From assembly GCA_963705105.1 (NCBI GenBank), contig CAVPIW010000005.1, positions 32,001 to 96,000 on the forward strand: a stretch of DNA of 64,000 nt. Reading direction: 5' to 3'. Position numbers and translations under genes: made by a program. The notes beneath the pieces are model-generated. The model was not told the origin of the DNA. It saw only the letters and a program-made list of their open reading frames with translations, and ran no database searches. Below are positions 21,327 to 28,761 of the stretch, piece after piece (position 1 is the stretch's first letter; each line of letters begins with the position of its first letter). Source of the stretch: an uncultured Nitrospiraceae bacterium (GTDB lineage: Bacteria; Nitrospirota; Thermodesulfovibrionia; Thermodesulfovibrionales; Dissulfurispiraceae).

Positions 21327-21746
21327 ATGCAAAAGATACTGGTAGCTCACGACGGTTCGAAATCGTCCGACAAGGCCCTCAAGAAGGCTGTAGAATTGTC
21401 ATTGAGCCTTAACGCCTCCCTGACCGTCCTGTCGGTCGTTCCCGAGCTTTACCTCACTGAGCTCTCAGACTCGGACAGGAGCAGGATATTTGAGGCCCTC
21501 TCGAAGGAGACGACCGATGCGATGGAAAGGATCCGCAAGTCCCTGTCGGGCAAATCGATCGAAGTCAAAACGCTCGTGAGACAGGGTGACCCTGCCGAGA
21601 AGATACTCGAGACGGCGCAGAAGATGAAGGTCGACATGGTCGTCACGGGGTCGCACGGCCGGCATGGCACGAAGAAATTCCTTCTCGGAAGCGTCTCGTC
21701 CAAGATCATCGATTACTCGAAATGCCCGGTTCTCGTTGTGAAATAG
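21327..21746 (+). CDS. Universal stress protein
   Basis: ILVAHDGS, GSHG...LLGSVS, CPVLVV. Confidence 0.95.
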   Translation: MQKILVAHDGSKSSDKALKKAVELSLSLNASLTVLSVVPELYLTELSDSDRSRIFEALSKETTDAMERIRKSLSGKSIEVKTLVRQGDPAEKILETAQKMKVDMVVTGSHGRHGTKKFLLGSVSSKIIDYSKCPVLVVK

Positions 21747-21938
21747 AGTCTGTCCATAAAGTAAGCTTCAGCTGTCATTCCCGCAACCCCGCACTTGATG
21801 CGGGGGCGTCGGGAATCCTTCTGAAACAACGATTCCGGACAAGACATAATGTATTAACCCTGTCCACAAACTTAAGTGACGTGGGTTAAGCTTAAGTGAG
21901 GGCTGAAGCTCAGAGCCACAATTAAGGAGGGACAGGGT

Positions 21939-23075
21939 ATGAAGAATTATAGCAAGTATGTCGGGCTTGATGTCCATAAGGAACGGATCCAGGTAGCGAT
22001 TGCGACGGCAGGCAGAGGCGAGCCGATGTTCTACGGTGAGATCGACAACAGGCCTGAGGCGATCAGGAGATTGGTCAAGAAGATCGCGAATGGTGGGGAC
22101 GTGTTGTATTGTTATGAGGCGGGTCCGTGCGGCTATGGGACGTATCGTCAACTGAGGGAGCTTGGCTATGCCTGCGAGGTGGTTGCGCCCTCGCTTATAC
22201 CGAGGAAGGCGGGCGATCGAGTTAAGACGGACCGCCGGGACGCGGTGAGCTTGGCAGGATTGCTGAGGGCGGGGCAACTGACGGCAGCATGGGTGCCTGA
22301 TGCTGAGCAGGAGGCGATCCGCGACTTGACGCGGATTCGTTTGGACATGAAGGCAGTGGAACGGCACTTTCGGCAGCGGCTGGGGGCGTTTCTGCTCAGA
22401 CATGGAAAGCTCTATCCGGGCAAGAGCCCGTGGACGCAGGCTCATTTTCGGTGGCTGGAGGGCCTGAAGTTTGACAGCGCTGTGCAGCAGATTGTTTTTC
22501 AGGAATATGTCGACGCTGTGGTGCAGGCAGGGCAGCGAGTCAAGGCGATTGAAGAGGAAATGCGACGGGCTCTGGAGACGTGGTCGCTGGCGCCGGTGGT
22601 CACAGCGCTGATGGCATTGCGGGGGCTGAAGATCGTGGGAGCGATGACGGTGGTGGCGGAACTCGGCGATGTGACCCGTTTCAGCAATGCGTCTCAGCTG
22701 ATGGCGTATCTCGGTCTGGTGCCCAGCGAGCATTCCAGCGGGGCGAAGCGGAGTCGAGGCGGGATCACCAAGGCAGGCAACGGGCATGCGCGGCGAATCC
22801 TGATCGAGGCTGCGTGGTGCTACCGGTTTCCCGCACGCAAGACGGCGGTGCTGCAGCGGCGGGCGGAGAAGACCTCTCCGGGGGTGCAGTCGATTGCGTG
22901 GAAGGCTCAGAAGCGGTTGTGCATGCGCTATCAACATCTCCTGCTGCGGGGAAAGCGGCCAGTGGAAGCCTGCACGGCGGTTGCCCGTGAGCTCGCTGGC
23001 TTCATCTGGGCGATTGTCTGTGAGGTCATGTCTGGCGCACCCGGACGCAGTGTGCTCGTCGCCGCAGCGAGCTGA
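21939..23075 (+). CDS. IS110-family DEDD recombinase/transposase
   Basis: YVGLDVHK, YEAG, KTDRRDA, GLVPSEHSSG. Confidence 0.96.
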   Translation: MKNYSKYVGLDVHKERIQVAIATAGRGEPMFYGEIDNRPEAIRRLVKKIANGGDVLYCYEAGPCGYGTYRQLRELGYACEVVAPSLIPRKAGDRVKTDRRDAVSLAGLLRAGQLTAAWVPDAEQEAIRDLTRIRLDMKAVERHFRQRLGAFLLRHGKLYPGKSPWTQAHFRWLEGLKFDSAVQQIVFQEYVDAVVQAGQRVKAIEEEMRRALETWSLAPVVTALMALRGLKIVGAMTVVAELGDVTRFSNASQLMAYLGLVPSEHSSGAKRSRGGITKAGNGHARRILIEAAWCYRFPARKTAVLQRRAEKTSPGVQSIAWKAQKRLCMRYQHLLLRGKRPVEACTAVARELAGFIWAIVCEVMSGAPGRSVLVAAAS

Positions 23076-23342
23076 TGGCGGTGGTTCGCCAAGGAATGGC
23101 ATGATAAAACCAGCTATAACCATGGTCATGAGATGGAACGGGCATGAGGTGTTGTCTTGGAGAATCCTCGCTTCCGGCATGAGGCTCCTAAAAGGATGAT
23201 CCTCGATACAAGACAGAGGCAACTCCGCGACGAAGACAAGTCATGCGGTAACCAACCCGCGCATATCAGCATGATCAACCGTCGCTGTGCACCTCATGCC
23301 CACACAATGCCATTAAACACACGAGCCTCACCGAGGACTCTT
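23076..23342 (+). ncRNA. Candidate bridge/seek RNA region of IS110 copy 1
   Basis: Stem-loops flanked by TTCCGGC and ACAAG (target matches) and CATATCAG (donor match). Confidence 0.65.
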
Positions 23343-23505
23343 GACAGGGTTAATACATATCAGCCGGAATGACAAATATACTGCACGTCATGAGTTTGTG
23401 GACAGACACTAAATAAGGAACCAGCGGCGTAACGACGGGGCACACAACAAGGCGCAGCATATCAGGAAGGGAAGCGGCTCAGTCATTACGAGCCGGCGAG
23501 ATACT

Positions 23506-24105
23506 TTAGAACAATTCCCTGAGGGTCTCTCGGGAAAGCTTTTCGATTTCCCGGTGAAGGCTGTTTCCGTGGGTGTCCATGGTGACGATGACCGGGAAAT
23601 CCTCGATCTCAAGCATCCACATCGCCTCGGGCTCGCCGAATTCCTCGGCCTTCCAGACATCAACGACCGCCTTTATCCTGTCCGCCAGGTAAGCGGCGGC
23701 GCCGCTGATCGTGTGGAGGTAGACGGAGCCGCACTCCATCAGGGCTTCAAGCGTTTTCTCTCCCATTCCGCCCTTCCCGATAATACCGGTTATGCCGTAT
23801 GTCCTGATGACGTCCGCCTCGTACAGTTCGACCCTCATGCTCGTCGTCGGCCCGGCGGCGATCAGCTTGTAGGAATCGTCGGTCTTCCGGATTATGGGGC
23901 CGCAGTGGTAAATGGTCCCTCCTGCAAGGTCGAAGGGAATTTCGTCCTTCCGGGGCCTTTCATGGGCGAGGAACTTGTGCACCCTGTCCCTGCCCGTGAC
24001 GATCATACCGCTCAGGAGGAGCATGTCACCCACCCGCAGCTCCCGGGCGAGCCCCTTCAACTCGTCGGTCCTGATTCTTCTCGTTCCCGCCGTGGTCATC
24101 GTCAC
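23506..24105 (-). CDS. Class I fumarate/tartrate hydratase beta subunit
   Basis: TGRD, YHCGP, AGPTTS.R, IGKGG, MDTHG. Confidence 0.92.
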   Translation of the reverse strand: MTMTTAGTRRIRTDELKGLARELRVGDMLLLSGMIVTGRDRVHKFLAHERPRKDEIPFDLAGGTIYHCGPIIRKTDDSYKLIAAGPTTSMRVELYEADVIRTYGITGIIGKGGMGEKTLEALMECGSVYLHTISGAAAYLADRIKAVVDVWKAEEFGEPEAMWMLEIEDFPVIVTMDTHGNSLHREIEKLSRETLRELF

Positions 24106-27239: not shown

Positions 27240-28761
27240 CTGATATGTATTAACCCTGTCAAGAGTCCTCGGTGAGGCTCGTGTGTTTAATGGCATTGTG
27301 TGGGCATGAGGTGCACAGCGACGGTTGATCATGCTGATATGCGCGGGTTGGTTACCGCATGACTTGTCTTCGTCGCGGAGCTGCCTCTGTCTTGTATCGA
27401 GGATCATCCTTTTAGGAGCCTCATGCCGGAAGCGAGGATTCTCCAAGACAACACCTCATGCCCGTTCCATCTCATGACCATGGTTATAGCTGGTTTTATC
27501 ATGCCATTCCTTGGCGAACCACCGCCATCAACTCGCTGCGGCGACGAGCACACTGCGTCCGGGTGCGCCAGACATGACCTCACAGACAATCGCCCAGATG
27601 AAGCCAGCGAGCTCACGGGCAACCGCCGTGCAGGCTTCCACTGGCCGCTTTCCCCGCAGCAGGAGATGTTGATAGCGCATGCACAACCGCTTCTGAGCCT
27701 TCCACGCAATCGACTGCACCCCCGGAGAGGTCTTCTCCGCCCGCCGCTGCAGCACCGCCGTCTTGCGTGCGGGAAACCGGTAGCACCACGCAGCCTCGAT
27801 CAGGATTCGCCGCGCATGCCCGTTGCCTGCCTTGGTGATCCCGCCTCGACTCCGCTTCGCCCCGCTGGAATGCTCGCTGGGCACCAGACCGAGATACGCC
27901 ATCAGCTGAGACGCATTGCTGAAACGGGTCACATCGCCGAGTTCCGCCACCACCGTCATCGCTCCCACGATCTTCAGCCCCCGCAATGCCATCAGCGCTG
28001 TGACCACCGGCGCCAGCGACCACGTCTCCAGAGCCCGCCGCATTTCCTCTTCAATCGCCTTGACTCGCTGCCCTGCCTGCACCACAGCGTCGACATATTC
28101 CTGAAAAACAATCTGCTGCACAGCGCTGTCAAACTTCAGGCCCTCCAGCCACCGAAAATGAGCCTGCGTCCACGGGCTCTTGCCCGGATAGAGCTTTCCA
28201 TGTCTGAGCAGAAACGCCCCCAGCCGCTGCCGAAAGTGCCGTTCCGCTGCCTTCATGTCCAAACGAATCCGCGTCAAGTCGCGGATCGCCTCCTGCTCAG
28301 CATCAGGCACCCATGCTGCCGTCAGTTGCCCCGCCCTCAGCAATCCTGCCAAGCTCACCGCGTCCCGGCGGTCCGTCTTAACTCGATCGCCCGCTTTCCT
28401 CGGTATAAGCGAGGGCGCAACCACCTCGCAGGCATAGCCAAGCTCCCTCAGTTGACGATACGTCCCATAGCCGCACGGACCCGCCTCATAACAATACAAC
28501 ACGTCCCCACCATTCGCGATCTTCTTGACCAATCTCCTGATCGCCTCAGGCCTGTTGTCGATCTCACCGTAGAACATCGGCTCGCCTCTGCCTGCCGTCG
28601 CAATCGCTACCTGGATCCGTTCCTTATGGACATCAAGCCCGACATACTTGCTATAATTCTTCATACCCTGTCCCTCCTTAATTGTGGCTCTGAGCTTCAG
28701 CCCTCACTTAAGCTTAACCCACGTCACTTAAGTTTGTGGACAGGGTTAATACATTATGTCT
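27240..28761 (-). mobile_element. IS110-family (IS1111-type) insertion sequence, copy 2, 1522 bp
   Basis: Near-identical inverted copy of 21842-23363; same REP target GTCATTCCGG[CT]TGTCCGGAATC. Confidence 0.93.
27528..28664 (-). CDS. IS110-family DEDD recombinase/transposase
   Basis: Matches copy 1 except V->A in MKA(V/A)ERH. Confidence 0.96.
   Translation of the reverse strand: MKNYSKYVGLDVHKERIQVAIATAGRGEPMFYGEIDNRPEAIRRLVKKIANGGDVLYCYEAGPCGYGTYRQLRELGYACEVVAPSLIPRKAGDRVKTDRRDAVSLAGLLRAGQLTAAWVPDAEQEAIRDLTRIRLDMKAAERHFRQRLGAFLLRHGKLYPGKSPWTQAHFRWLEGLKFDSAVQQIVFQEYVDAVVQAGQRVKAIEEEMRRALETWSLAPVVTALMALRGLKIVGAMTVVAELGDVTRFSNASQLMAYLGLVPSEHSSGAKRSRGGITKAGNGHARRILIEAAWCYRFPARKTAVLQRRAEKTSPGVQSIAWKAQKRLCMRYQHLLLRGKRPVEACTAVARELAGFIWAIVCEVMSGAPGRSVLVAAAS

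What the first reader, a model, noticed from the sequence alone, without database searches (positions are those of the whole stretch)
23076..23342. Readable bridge-RNA guide architecture in the IS 3' non-coding region
Seen, taking target as attccgg-CT-tgtcc and circle junction as attatgt-CT-gatatg: TTCCGGC (23172-78) matches target-left plus C; a stem-loop follows (GAGG...CCTC, 23181-23204); ACAAG (23208-12) is the reverse complement of core plus target-right. A second module has AAGTC (23238-42, weak donor-left match), stem GCGG...CCGC, then CATATCAG (23262-69), an exact reverse complement of core plus donor-right. Both left guides end in C-ATG. Established: bridge RNAs order guides LTG, RTG, LDG, RDG, and IS1111-type elements encode the RNA downstream of the recombinase. 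Inference: a reprogrammable RNA-guided recombinase. The matches are short and the donor-left one is weak.
Basis: partly seen in the sequence, partly recalled or inferred. Interest (0 to 1): 0.8.

Follow-up and report, generated by a model that had tools for sequence, protein, structure and literature searches.

The report
Bridge RNA of a REP-targeting insertion sequence
The non-coding tail of this jumping gene very probably encodes the folded guide RNA that tells its recombinase where to insert, a mechanism described in 2024, so this is a well-supported new example and not a new principle.

Summary
The element is a 1520-bp IS110-family insertion sequence (window 21844-23363) with a second copy at 27240-28759 on the minus strand. 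Both sit in a genome-wide palindromic repeat at TTCCGGACA-AG-CCGGAA; 29 perfect empty sites remain.

The short matches prove little in this one sequence. The support comes from homologues.
- A covariance model finds the same about 177-nt structure just downstream of the recombinase gene in 78 of 79 related loci searched.
- 25 of its 41 base pairs show compensatory changes.
- The 5' variable segment tracks each element's right flank, with a mean longest match of 6.3 nt against 3.3 nt for foreign flanks. The 3' segment tracks the left flank, 4.7 against 3.5. No permutation out of 5000 reached either value.
- The right donor guide equals the element's own right end in 72 of 77 elements, including all three variant ends.

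No transcript evidence was obtained.

Verdict: a real bridge/seek RNA and a new member of a known kind. This scan has reported the same kind on other DNA several times.

The parts
21833..21843 (+). Left half of the target: TTCCGGACA plus the core dinucleotide AG (21842-43), part of a REP-like palindromic repeat.
   Evidence: empty sites read TTCCGGACAAGCCGGAA, so AG occurs once in the empty site and at both junctions of the occupied one.
21844..23363 (+). Insertion sequence copy A, 1520 bp, counted with the right-hand core AG (23362-63).
   Evidence: The ends AG|ACATnATG... and ...CATATC|AG are conserved in homologues.
21849..21866 (+). Left subterminal inverted repeat ATGTATTAACCCTGTCCA. The CATAAT at 21845-50 is the likely -10 box of the circle-junction promoter.
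   Evidence: 18-nt inverted repeat with one mismatch. CATAAT picked up as a -10-like hexamer.
21939..23075 (+). Recombinase gene, 378 aa, IS110 family. D11, E60, D98, D101 and S267 are aligned to the catalytic residues of IS621.
   Evidence: ORF. (PF01548, PF02371). (NF033542, 253 bits, cut-off 140). (alignment to PDB 8wt6). Residue roles are from PMC11208158.
23133..23309 (+). Predicted bridge/seek RNA: the covariance-model match. It is closed by a 12-bp outer stem, 23140-51 with 23290-301.
23159..23226 (+). Target-binding module. Basal stems are GGAG 23159-62 with CTCC 23223-26, and CCTC 23166-69 with GAGG 23216-19. They enclose an internal loop and a hairpin at 23181-23204.
   Evidence: helices 2-4: 98-100% of cells paired in the basal stems, 6 of 8 hairpin pairs with compensatory change. 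One search gives the coordinates.
23172..23178 (+). 5' target guide TTCCGGC. It is complementary to the + strand G-CCGGAA, that is core G plus the right flank (23363-69).
   Evidence: In homologues this segment equals revcomp(core + right flank).
23208..23215 (+). 3' target guide ACAAG (23208-12), which equals the left flank ACA plus core AG. It is followed by ACA (23213-15), identical to the first bases of the left end and a possible handshake guide.
   Evidence: covariation with the left flank; the first following base is A in 63 of 63 elements, the second matches in only 13 of 63.
23227..23285 (+). Donor-binding module: stem GCGACG 23227-32 with CGTCGC 23280-85, and inner hairpin GCGG 23245-48 with CCGC 23257-60.
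   Evidence: helices 5 and 6: 96.5% and 93.2% of cells paired, with compensatory changes at columns 112/172 and 133/146.
23238..23242 (+). 5' donor guide AAGTC. GTC is complementary to core G plus AC of the left end. This guide is weak.
   Evidence: 4 of 6 positions match in most elements, 5 of 6 in 4 elements. One change in the left end (ACAT to ACCT) is mirrored in 9 copies from one genome.
23262..23269 (+). 3' donor guide CATATCAG, identical to the right end plus core (23356-63).
   Evidence:: the 7-mer is identical to the element's own right end in 72 of 77 elements, including the variants ATACCAG, ATAACAG and ATATCAA.
23341..23358 (+). Right subterminal inverted repeat TTGACAGGGTTAATACAT. 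Its TTGACA (23341-46) would be the -35 box of the circle-junction promoter, 18 nt from CATAAT once the ends are joined.
   Evidence: repeat. The spacing was read. The promoter role is an inference from the family (PMC11187229 section 8).
23364..23370 (+). Right half of the target, CCGGAAT.
27240..28759 (-). Insertion sequence copy B, in the same target sequence. It has 5 differences from copy A, one of them in the RNA (23222 A in copy A, G in copy B; G is the family consensus). Its RNA lies at 27294-27470.

Best explanation
Window 23133-23309 (+) encodes the bridge RNA (seekRNA) of an IS110-family insertion sequence with IS1111-type layout.

Inferred mechanism, by homology with IS621 and ISEc11: the element excises as a circle. 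Joining its ends creates a TTGACA-18-CATAAT promoter, which drives the recombinase gene and, by read-through, the 3' non-coding region. The RNA is cut out of that transcript and binds the recombinase.

The RNA has a closing stem and two adjacent arms, each an internal loop capped by a hairpin.
- In the first loop, TTCCGGC pairs with the + strand of the target (core G plus CCGGAA), and ACAAG pairs with the - strand (ACA plus core AG).
- In the second loop, CATATCAG pairs with the - strand of the right end plus core, and (A)AGTC pairs weakly with the + strand of core G plus the left end.

The recombinase then exchanges strands at the AG (CT) core. This inserts the element, without a duplication, into the REP-like repeat TTCCGGACA-AG-CCGGAA.

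Shown here: the sequence anatomy, the conserved structure, and the covariation of guides with flanks and ends. Inferred: transcription, processing, protein binding and catalysis.
For: 1. Element and target. Two copies sit in the same site, and 29 perfect empty sites are present in the genome.
2. Recombinase. It matches PF01548 and PF02371 and NF033542, 'IS110 family RNA-guided transposase', at 253 bits against a cut-off of 140. Its catalytic D, E, D, D and S residues align to IS621.
3. Structure. In 33 homologues, 91.9% of pair cells form standard pairs, against 36-46% when partners are slid. 25 of 41 pairs carry compensatory changes, and 0 of 500 shuffles reached the observed values.
4. Covariance model. 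It hits 78 of 79 related loci searched, always downstream of the recombinase gene on its strand, and only the two element copies in the own genome.
5. Target guides.
 - 59 distinct pairs of 5' guide and right flank: mean longest match 6.34 nt with the own flank against 3.29 with foreign flanks, 0 of 5000 permutations as high.
 - 53 pairs of 3' guide and left flank: 4.72 against 3.48, 0 of 5000.
 - 32 of 39 distinct 5' guides have a median match of 6 nt or more.
 - In the first set of 33 pairs, the other strand and flank combinations scored 3.15-3.79.
6. Donor guide. The 3' donor 7-mer equals the own right end plus core in 72 of 77 elements. All three variant ends (4, 3 and 1 elements) are mirrored. 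In L092-94 the core is AA, the 5' target guide ends TT and the donor guide ends CAA.
7. Guide order. The guide complementary to the top strand lies 5' of the one complementary to the bottom strand, with top taken as the transposase sense strand. This is the order reported for IS1111-type seekRNAs (PMC11187229 sections 9 and 12).
Against: - No transcript evidence. The public runs that hold the sequence are kept as contigs only and show no RNA ends. No + strand promoter-like site was found inside the non-coding region.
- The strand is not settled by sequence. G-U cells number 56 and A-C cells 45, and guide complementarity is symmetric between strands.
- The 5' donor guide is weak: 4 of 6 positions in most elements, and 3 contiguous bases in the window copy.
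- In this copy the 5' target guide reads ...GGC-A where most relatives read ...CT-A, so core A has no U partner and the match is shifted by one base.
- 7 of 39 distinct 5' guides match their own flank poorly, with a median of 5 nt or less.
- The recombinase is far from every tested one: 22.6-22.8% identity to IS4321/IS5075 over 78% of its length, and E about 4e-6 to IS621 and ISCro4.
- Rfam has no matching family.
Confidence: 0.88

Rival explanations
1. The conserved folded region acts as nucleic acid of the other strand, or as single-stranded DNA at the element's end, in the manner of the guide sequences of IS200/IS605. It would not be an RNA made in the recombinase sense.
For: Complementarity to both target strands is symmetric, so the reverse complement would pair equally well. 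G-U (56 cells) against A-C (45 cells) does not decide the strand. No transcript was seen.
Against: In the experimentally studied relatives the guide is an RNA that co-purifies with the recombinase and maps to the 3' non-coding region in the recombinase sense (PMC11187229 section 8). The junction promoter reads in that sense. The guide order fits the published IS1111 order only for the + strand RNA.
Confidence: 0.04
2. The region is a conserved 3' untranslated structure of the recombinase mRNA, for stability, termination or translation control. The flank matches would then reflect only that relatives share targets by descent.
For: It lies directly after the stop codon and folds stably: -64.1 kcal/mol, z -3.27. 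Related sequences share both guides and targets, so the element-site pairs are not independent.
Against: 39 distinct 5' guides follow flanks of unrelated sequence. The variable bases sit in loops between invariant stems. The donor guide changes together with the right end and the core. Foreign pairings score at background.
Confidence: 0.03
3. The RNA gene is genuine, but this copy is a weakened or inactive relic. Its 5' target guide has lost the U that pairs with core A, and copy A carries an A at a nearly invariant G (23222).
For: The register shift is seen only in the window element, and less clearly in L044. 29 perfect target sites remain empty while only 2 are occupied. The two copies differ at 5 positions.
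Against: Both copies sit exactly at the site spelled by the guides (7 + 5 nt) and have intact reading frames with the catalytic residues. The donor loop of all 63 relatives examined also lacks a U opposite core A, so this state is compatible with a working loop.
Confidence: 0.1
4. The four matches are chance.
For: TTCCGGC and the two 5-mers are common words.
Confidence: 0.01

Closest known systems
seekRNAs of IS1111-family elements ISEc11, ISPa11 and ISKpn4 (Siddiquee et al. 2024, PMC11187229; abstract and sections 6, 8, 9, 12 read)
   Same: The RNA lies in the non-coding region downstream of the recombinase gene. Subterminal inverted repeats are present. There is no target duplication. [quoted passage not shown] ISPa11 also targets a REP sequence.
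   Different: The recombinase has 378 aa, against the 330-350 aa quoted for the IS1111 family. It is only 22.6-22.8% identical to IS4321/IS5075 over 78% of its length; it was not compared with ISEc11, ISPa11 or ISKpn4. A donor-binding module is readable here, which the sections of that paper that I read do not describe.
IS621 bridge RNA (Durrant et al. 2024, PMC11208160, passages; Hiraizumi et al. 2024, PMC11208158, passages)
   Same: It has two internal loops, target-binding and donor-binding. In each loop a longer 5' guide and a shorter 3' guide pair with opposite strands and overlap at a dinucleotide core, CT on the strand taken as top. The donor is the joined ends of the element. The catalytic D, E, D, D and S residues are conserved. 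A base after the 3' target guide matches the donor, as a handshake guide does.
   Different: The RNA is at the 3' end, not the 5' end, so the CT-core strand is antisense to the recombinase gene. The two arms are enclosed by a common closing stem. The inverted repeats are long (12-18 bp). The protein similarity is very low (E 4e-6). No signal was found for a donor-loop handshake guide (8 and 9 of 46).
ISPpu9/ISPpu10 of Pseudomonas putida (PMC12288879, abstract only)
   Same: These are IS110-family elements inserted in REP sequences. ISPpu10 forms a hybrid junction promoter.
   Different: In ISPpu9 the downstream small RNA Ssr9 was not needed for transposition and moves as a module of its own. 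Here the model found no solo RNA copy in the genome.

Membership tests
IS110 family (DEDD recombinase elements) | Recombinase with an N-terminal DEDD/RuvC-like domain and the C-terminal Tnp domain | tested here: met
   PF01548 E 1.3e-15 and PF02371 E 3.9e-21. NF033542 at 253 bits against a cut-off of 140.
IS110 family (DEDD recombinase elements) | Catalytic D, E, D, D and the serine of the SG motif | tested here: met
   D11, E60, D98, D101 and S267 align with the corresponding residues of IS621. The per-domain alignments are weak (independent E 0.42 and 0.083). The motif GL-P----SG reads GLVPSEHSSG; the motif is taken from PMC11187229 section 6.
IS110 family (DEDD recombinase elements) | Site-specific insertion at a shared core dinucleotide without target duplication | tested here: met
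   The empty site has one AG and the occupied site has AG at each junction.
IS1111 group | Subterminal inverted repeats of 7-17 bp | tested here: met
   12 perfect bp, or 17 of 18, at 21849-66 and 23341-58. The criterion is from PMC11208160 section 12.
IS1111 group | The longer non-coding region, and the RNA, lie downstream of the recombinase gene | tested here: met
   95 nt upstream (21844-21938) against 288 nt downstream (23076-23363). The model match is downstream in 78 of 79 relatives searched.
IS1111 group | Recombinase related over its full length to that of IS1111, typically 330-350 aa | tested here: inconclusive
   378 aa. 22.6-22.8% identity to IS4321/IS5075 over residues 1-295 only. 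It was not compared with IS1111 itself, and no tree was built.
IS1111 group | The top-strand-complementary guide lies 5' of the bottom-strand-complementary guide | tested here: met
   set against PMC11187229 sections 9 and 12.
Bridge RNA / seekRNA | Structured RNA with guides in internal loops that covary with the target flanks | tested here: met
Bridge RNA / seekRNA | A second loop whose guides match the joined ends of the element (the donor) | tested here: inconclusive
   The 3' donor guide is met: 72 of 77 elements, with all variant ends mirrored. The 5' donor guide is only partly met: 4 of 6 positions in most elements, with one mirrored change.
Bridge RNA / seekRNA | The RNA is transcribed and bound by the recombinase | not testable with these tools
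   The runs found are contigs only and show no RNA ends.
Bridge RNA / seekRNA | Changing the guides changes the insertion site | not testable with these tools
   There is only natural variation: 39 distinct 5' guides follow their flanks.

The most novel reading that the evidence does not exclude
This is a separate, widely spread lineage of 3'-RNA bridge recombinases. Relatives at 57-72% identity carry record titles from Nitrospirota, several proteobacterial classes, Acidobacteriota, Gemmatimonadota, Latescibacterota, Chloroflexota and others. Its recombinase is only about 23% identical to the classical IS1111-type transposases. Its RNA has a simple IS621-like two-loop plan inside a closing stem. 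The base opposite core A in the 5' donor guide is never U, and the same holds for the 5' target guide in the window copy. Such a built-in unpaired core base could set the order or direction of strand exchange, and the family could serve as an orthogonal programmable recombinase.
Probability: 0.15. Interest if true: 0.45.

Novelty: new member of a known kind. Interest (0 to 1): 0.25.

Why it matters
It adds a well-resolved natural example to the bridge/seek RNA class, with 39 distinct natural target guides whose flanks can be read. The example spells out the pairing rules of this subfamily: about 6 flank bases plus the core on one side, and about 3 plus the core on the other. It also explains why this element sits only in one REP-like repeat of its host. 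For engineering it offers a recombinase distant from IS621 and ISCro4, paired with a compact RNA. It does not change the understanding of the mechanism.

Tried and rejected
- Rfam scan of 21500-23800 at E up to 10: only two noise hits to archaeal snoRNA models inside the coding region.
- Public sequencing runs and laying four of them. All are contigs, three are only guessed to be RNA, and the one true metatranscriptome covers 22569-22742 only. This says nothing about a transcript, its ends or its strand.
- Strand test by G-U against A-C cells: 56 against 45, undecided.
- Promoter scan: no + strand site in the non-coding region. The sites found are consensus matches only.
- Donor-loop handshake guide: the two bases after the 3' donor guide match the right flank in 8 and 9 of 46 distinct cases, which is chance level. 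Rejected.
- Target-loop handshake guide beyond the first base: the second base matches in only 13 of 63 elements. Kept only as an analogy for the window copy.
- E. coli plasmid relative L111 (48.6% identity). The model matches weakly (35 bits), and its 3' donor guide ATAAGAG equals the end that I read by eye. Its target guides did not match the flanks at the boundaries I guessed. I did not determine those boundaries from further copies, so it is left out of all counts.
- My first regular expression found ends in only 42 of 81 elements. The relaxed one found right ends in 77 and left ends in 63 of 81. Elements without a recognised end are not in the counts. For L036 and L037 the relaxed expression took the inner copy of a duplicated right end.
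- In the MAFFT alignment A1 the 3' arm of the window's outer stem is shifted. The model alignment pairs it correctly.

Full report
OBSERVATION.
- TTCCGGC at 23172-78;
- a hairpin whose outer pairs are GAGG 23181-84 and CCTC 23201-04;
- ACAAG at 23208-12;
- AAGTC at 23238-42;
- GCGG 23245-48 with CCGC 23257-60;
- CATATCAG at 23262-69.
Both 5' segments are followed by ATG. Taken alone the matches are modest. CATATCAG is expected 1.41 times in both strands of the window, whereas TTCCGGC is expected 14.8 times and occurs 18 times. The 5-mers carry no weight.

THE ELEMENT AND ITS TARGET.
- The stretch lies after a 378-aa ORF (21939-23075). The ORF matches PF01548 and PF02371 and NCBIfam NF033542, 'IS110 family RNA-guided transposase', at 253 bits against a cut-off of 140.
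- A search of the window's own genome found a second copy on the minus strand (window 27240-28759). It differs at 5 positions.
- The same search found about 48 short matches to the flanking sequence, which is a dispersed palindromic repeat.
- Both copies are flanked by ...TTCCGGACAAG | ACATAAT...CATATCAG | CCGGAAT.... Uninterrupted repeats read TTCCGGACAAGCCGGAA: 11 of the 13 sites printed, and 29 exact sites in the genome.
- The element is therefore 1520 bp (21844-23363, counting one AG). It inserts at an AG core (CT on the other strand) without duplication.
- It has subterminal inverted repeats at 21849-66 and 23341-58, matching at 17 of 18 positions.

HOMOLOGUES. A scan of one genome per prokaryotic species returned 249 relatives. 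The best 80 were kept, at 57-72% protein identity. Their record titles name many phyla. Their ends are conserved: AG|ACATnATG... and ...CATATC|AG. The flanks differ from element to element.

STRUCTURE.
- Aligning the downstream non-coding regions shows invariant blocks interrupted by two short variable blocks.
- In 33 distinct sequences (alignment A1) I specified a structure of 41 pairs: an outer stem, two basal stems and a hairpin for module 1, and one stem and a hairpin for module 2.
- 91.9% of cells are paired, against 36-46% when partners are slid by 1-3 columns. 25 pairs carry changes on both sides. 0 of 500 shuffles reached any of the five measures. RNAalifold found nearly the same fold by itself.
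- A covariance model built from this alignment matched 78 of the 79 related loci searched. L101 gave no match. L042 has only 33 nt downstream and was not searched. Every match is on the recombinase strand and just downstream of the gene.
- The model matched the own genome only at the two copies.
- It matched weakly (35 bits) at an E. coli plasmid element whose recombinase is 48.6% identical.

TARGET GUIDES COVARY WITH THE FLANKS.
- The 8 nt before the conserved ATGAGG equal the reverse complement of core plus right flank. The 3 nt before the conserved AGA equal the end of the left flank.
- 5' window against the own right flank: over 59 distinct guide-flank pairs, the longest common string averages 6.34 nt, against 3.29 for 3332 foreign pairings.
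- 3' window against the own left flank: over 53 pairs, 4.72 nt against 3.48.
- 0 of 5000 permutations reached either mean.
- In the first set of 33 pairs, the wrong strand or flank combinations scored 3.15-3.79.
- There are 39 distinct 5' guides. 32 have a median match of 6 nt or more to their own flanks and 7 do not, so some copies sit at poorly matching sites. The pairs are not phylogenetically independent.

DONOR GUIDES.
- The 7-mer aligned to 23263-69 equals the element's own last five bases plus core in 72 of 77 elements.
- The three variant ends are all mirrored: ATACCAG in 4 elements, ATAACAG in 1 and ATATCAA in 3.
- The 5 misses are four copies ending in CAA against a CAG guide, two of them the inner copy of a duplicated end, and L080.
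- In L092-94 the core is AA, and the 5' target guide there ends TT.
- The 5' donor guide is weak. The 6-mer aligned to 23238-43 matches the reverse complement of core plus left end at 4 of 6 positions in most of 63 elements and at 5 of 6 in four. The base opposite core A is never U. One left-end change (ACAT to ACCT, 9 copies of one genome) is mirrored at one position and accompanied by a new mismatch at another.
- By eye, in L102-109 the left end reads AGAAG and the guide window contains CTCT. These elements are not in the counts.

PECULIARITIES OF THE WINDOW COPY.
- Most relatives read ...CT-ATG at the end of the 5' target guide. The window reads ...GGC-ATG, so the match to G-CCGGAA is 7 nt, it is shifted by one base against the family register, and core A has no U partner.
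- The three bases after ACAAG (ACA, 23213-15) equal the first bases of the left end. In IS621 the bases after the right target guide pair with the donor after strand exchange, as 'handshake guides' (PMC11208158, passages).
- In this family only the first of these bases is general: A in 63 of 63 elements, invariant on both sides. The second matches in 13 of 63. This therefore remains an analogy.

COMPARISON WITH WHAT IS KNOWN.
- Durrant et al. state that IS1111-group elements have long right ends, subterminal repeats of 7-17 bp and a predicted bridge RNA in the right end in 93% of cases. They also describe loops whose 5' side pairs with the bottom strand and whose 3' side pairs with the top strand, overlapping at the core (PMC11208160, passages of sections 6, 7 and 12).
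- Siddiquee et al. show for ISEc11, ISPa11 and ISKpn4 that an RNA from the 3' non-coding region co-purifies with the transposase. It carries a top-strand-complementary segment 5' of a bottom-strand-complementary one, and no promoter other than the junction promoter was seen (PMC11187229, sections 8, 9 and 12 read whole).
- The window element fits all of this.
- It departs in protein similarity: 22.6-22.8% identity to IS4321/IS5075 over 78% of the query. The only solved relatives, IS621 and ISCro4, match at E about 4e-6, although the catalytic D, E, D, D and S residues align.
- Its length of 378 aa is above the 330-350 aa quoted for IS1111-family transposases. I therefore file it under the IS110 family with IS1111-type layout and leave the subgroup open.
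- I read only the abstracts of PMC13626964 and PMC12288879.
- I opened no supplements. Supplementary Table 5 of PMC11208160 may already list a named relative.

WHAT IS NOT SHOWN.
- Transcription, processing, protein binding and activity are not shown.
- The sequencing runs that hold the sequence are contigs and give no RNA ends.
- The strand is inferred from the published relatives and from the junction promoter: TTGACA 23341-46, an 18-nt spacer, then CATAAT 21845-50 once the ends are joined (read; hexamer seen). Sequence asymmetry does not settle it: 56 G-U cells against 45 A-C cells.

VERDICT. This is a new member of a known kind, of low to moderate interest. The scan has reported the same kind of RNA on other genomes before. 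One of those earlier reports partly failed a later check. For that reason the weak donor guide and the handshake reading are marked here as unsettled.

Noticed in passing
window 21761-21843 and 23364-23375; own-genome loci L003-L030: The target belongs to a dispersed repeat of about 85 bp built of nested palindromes (tgtcattcccgc...gcgggggcgtcgggaat...TTCCGGACAAGCCGGAAtgaca). 29 copies carry the exact 17-nt site. 14 carry ACGAG in place of ACAAG, one mismatch to the 3' guide.
   Followed up: partly
window 23207: A metagenome contig (run X2, record 16) that covers 23095-23270 has G for T at 23207. This would lengthen the 3' target guide match from ACAAG to GACAAG. It is a single contig at depth 5.85.
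   Followed up: no
L032:1470-1500: In this Nitrospiraceae copy the left flank ends in ACATATC-AG, the same as the element's own right end. It may be an insertion next to a remnant end, or a donor-donor event. Its 3' target guide does not match this flank (3 nt).
   Followed up: no
L036 and L037, about 300-400 nt after the recombinase stop codon: The last 77 bp or so of the element, including the right inverted repeat, are present twice in tandem. The inner copy ends CATATCAA and the outer one CATATCAG.
   Followed up: no
L092-L094: Three copies in one Holophagaceae genome use core AA where the family uses AG, with matching changes in the 5' target guide and the 3' donor guide. Their upstream 260 nt are identical, so the left boundary was not found.
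   Followed up: partly
window 23222 versus 27381 (copy B): Copy A has A where copy B and 31 of 33 aligned relatives have G, in the internal loop between the two basal stems of the target module (GGCAGCUCC).
   Followed up: no
window 23458-23465: A third CATATCAG lies 95 nt beyond the right end of copy A, in the flank. It is probably chance.
   Followed up: no
L111 (E. coli plasmid CP054315.1, 9012-10145): An unnamed 'IS110 family transposase' is 48.6% identical to the window's recombinase. It has a weak match to the RNA model directly after its stop codon, and a donor guide ATAAGAG equal to its apparent right end.
   Followed up: partly
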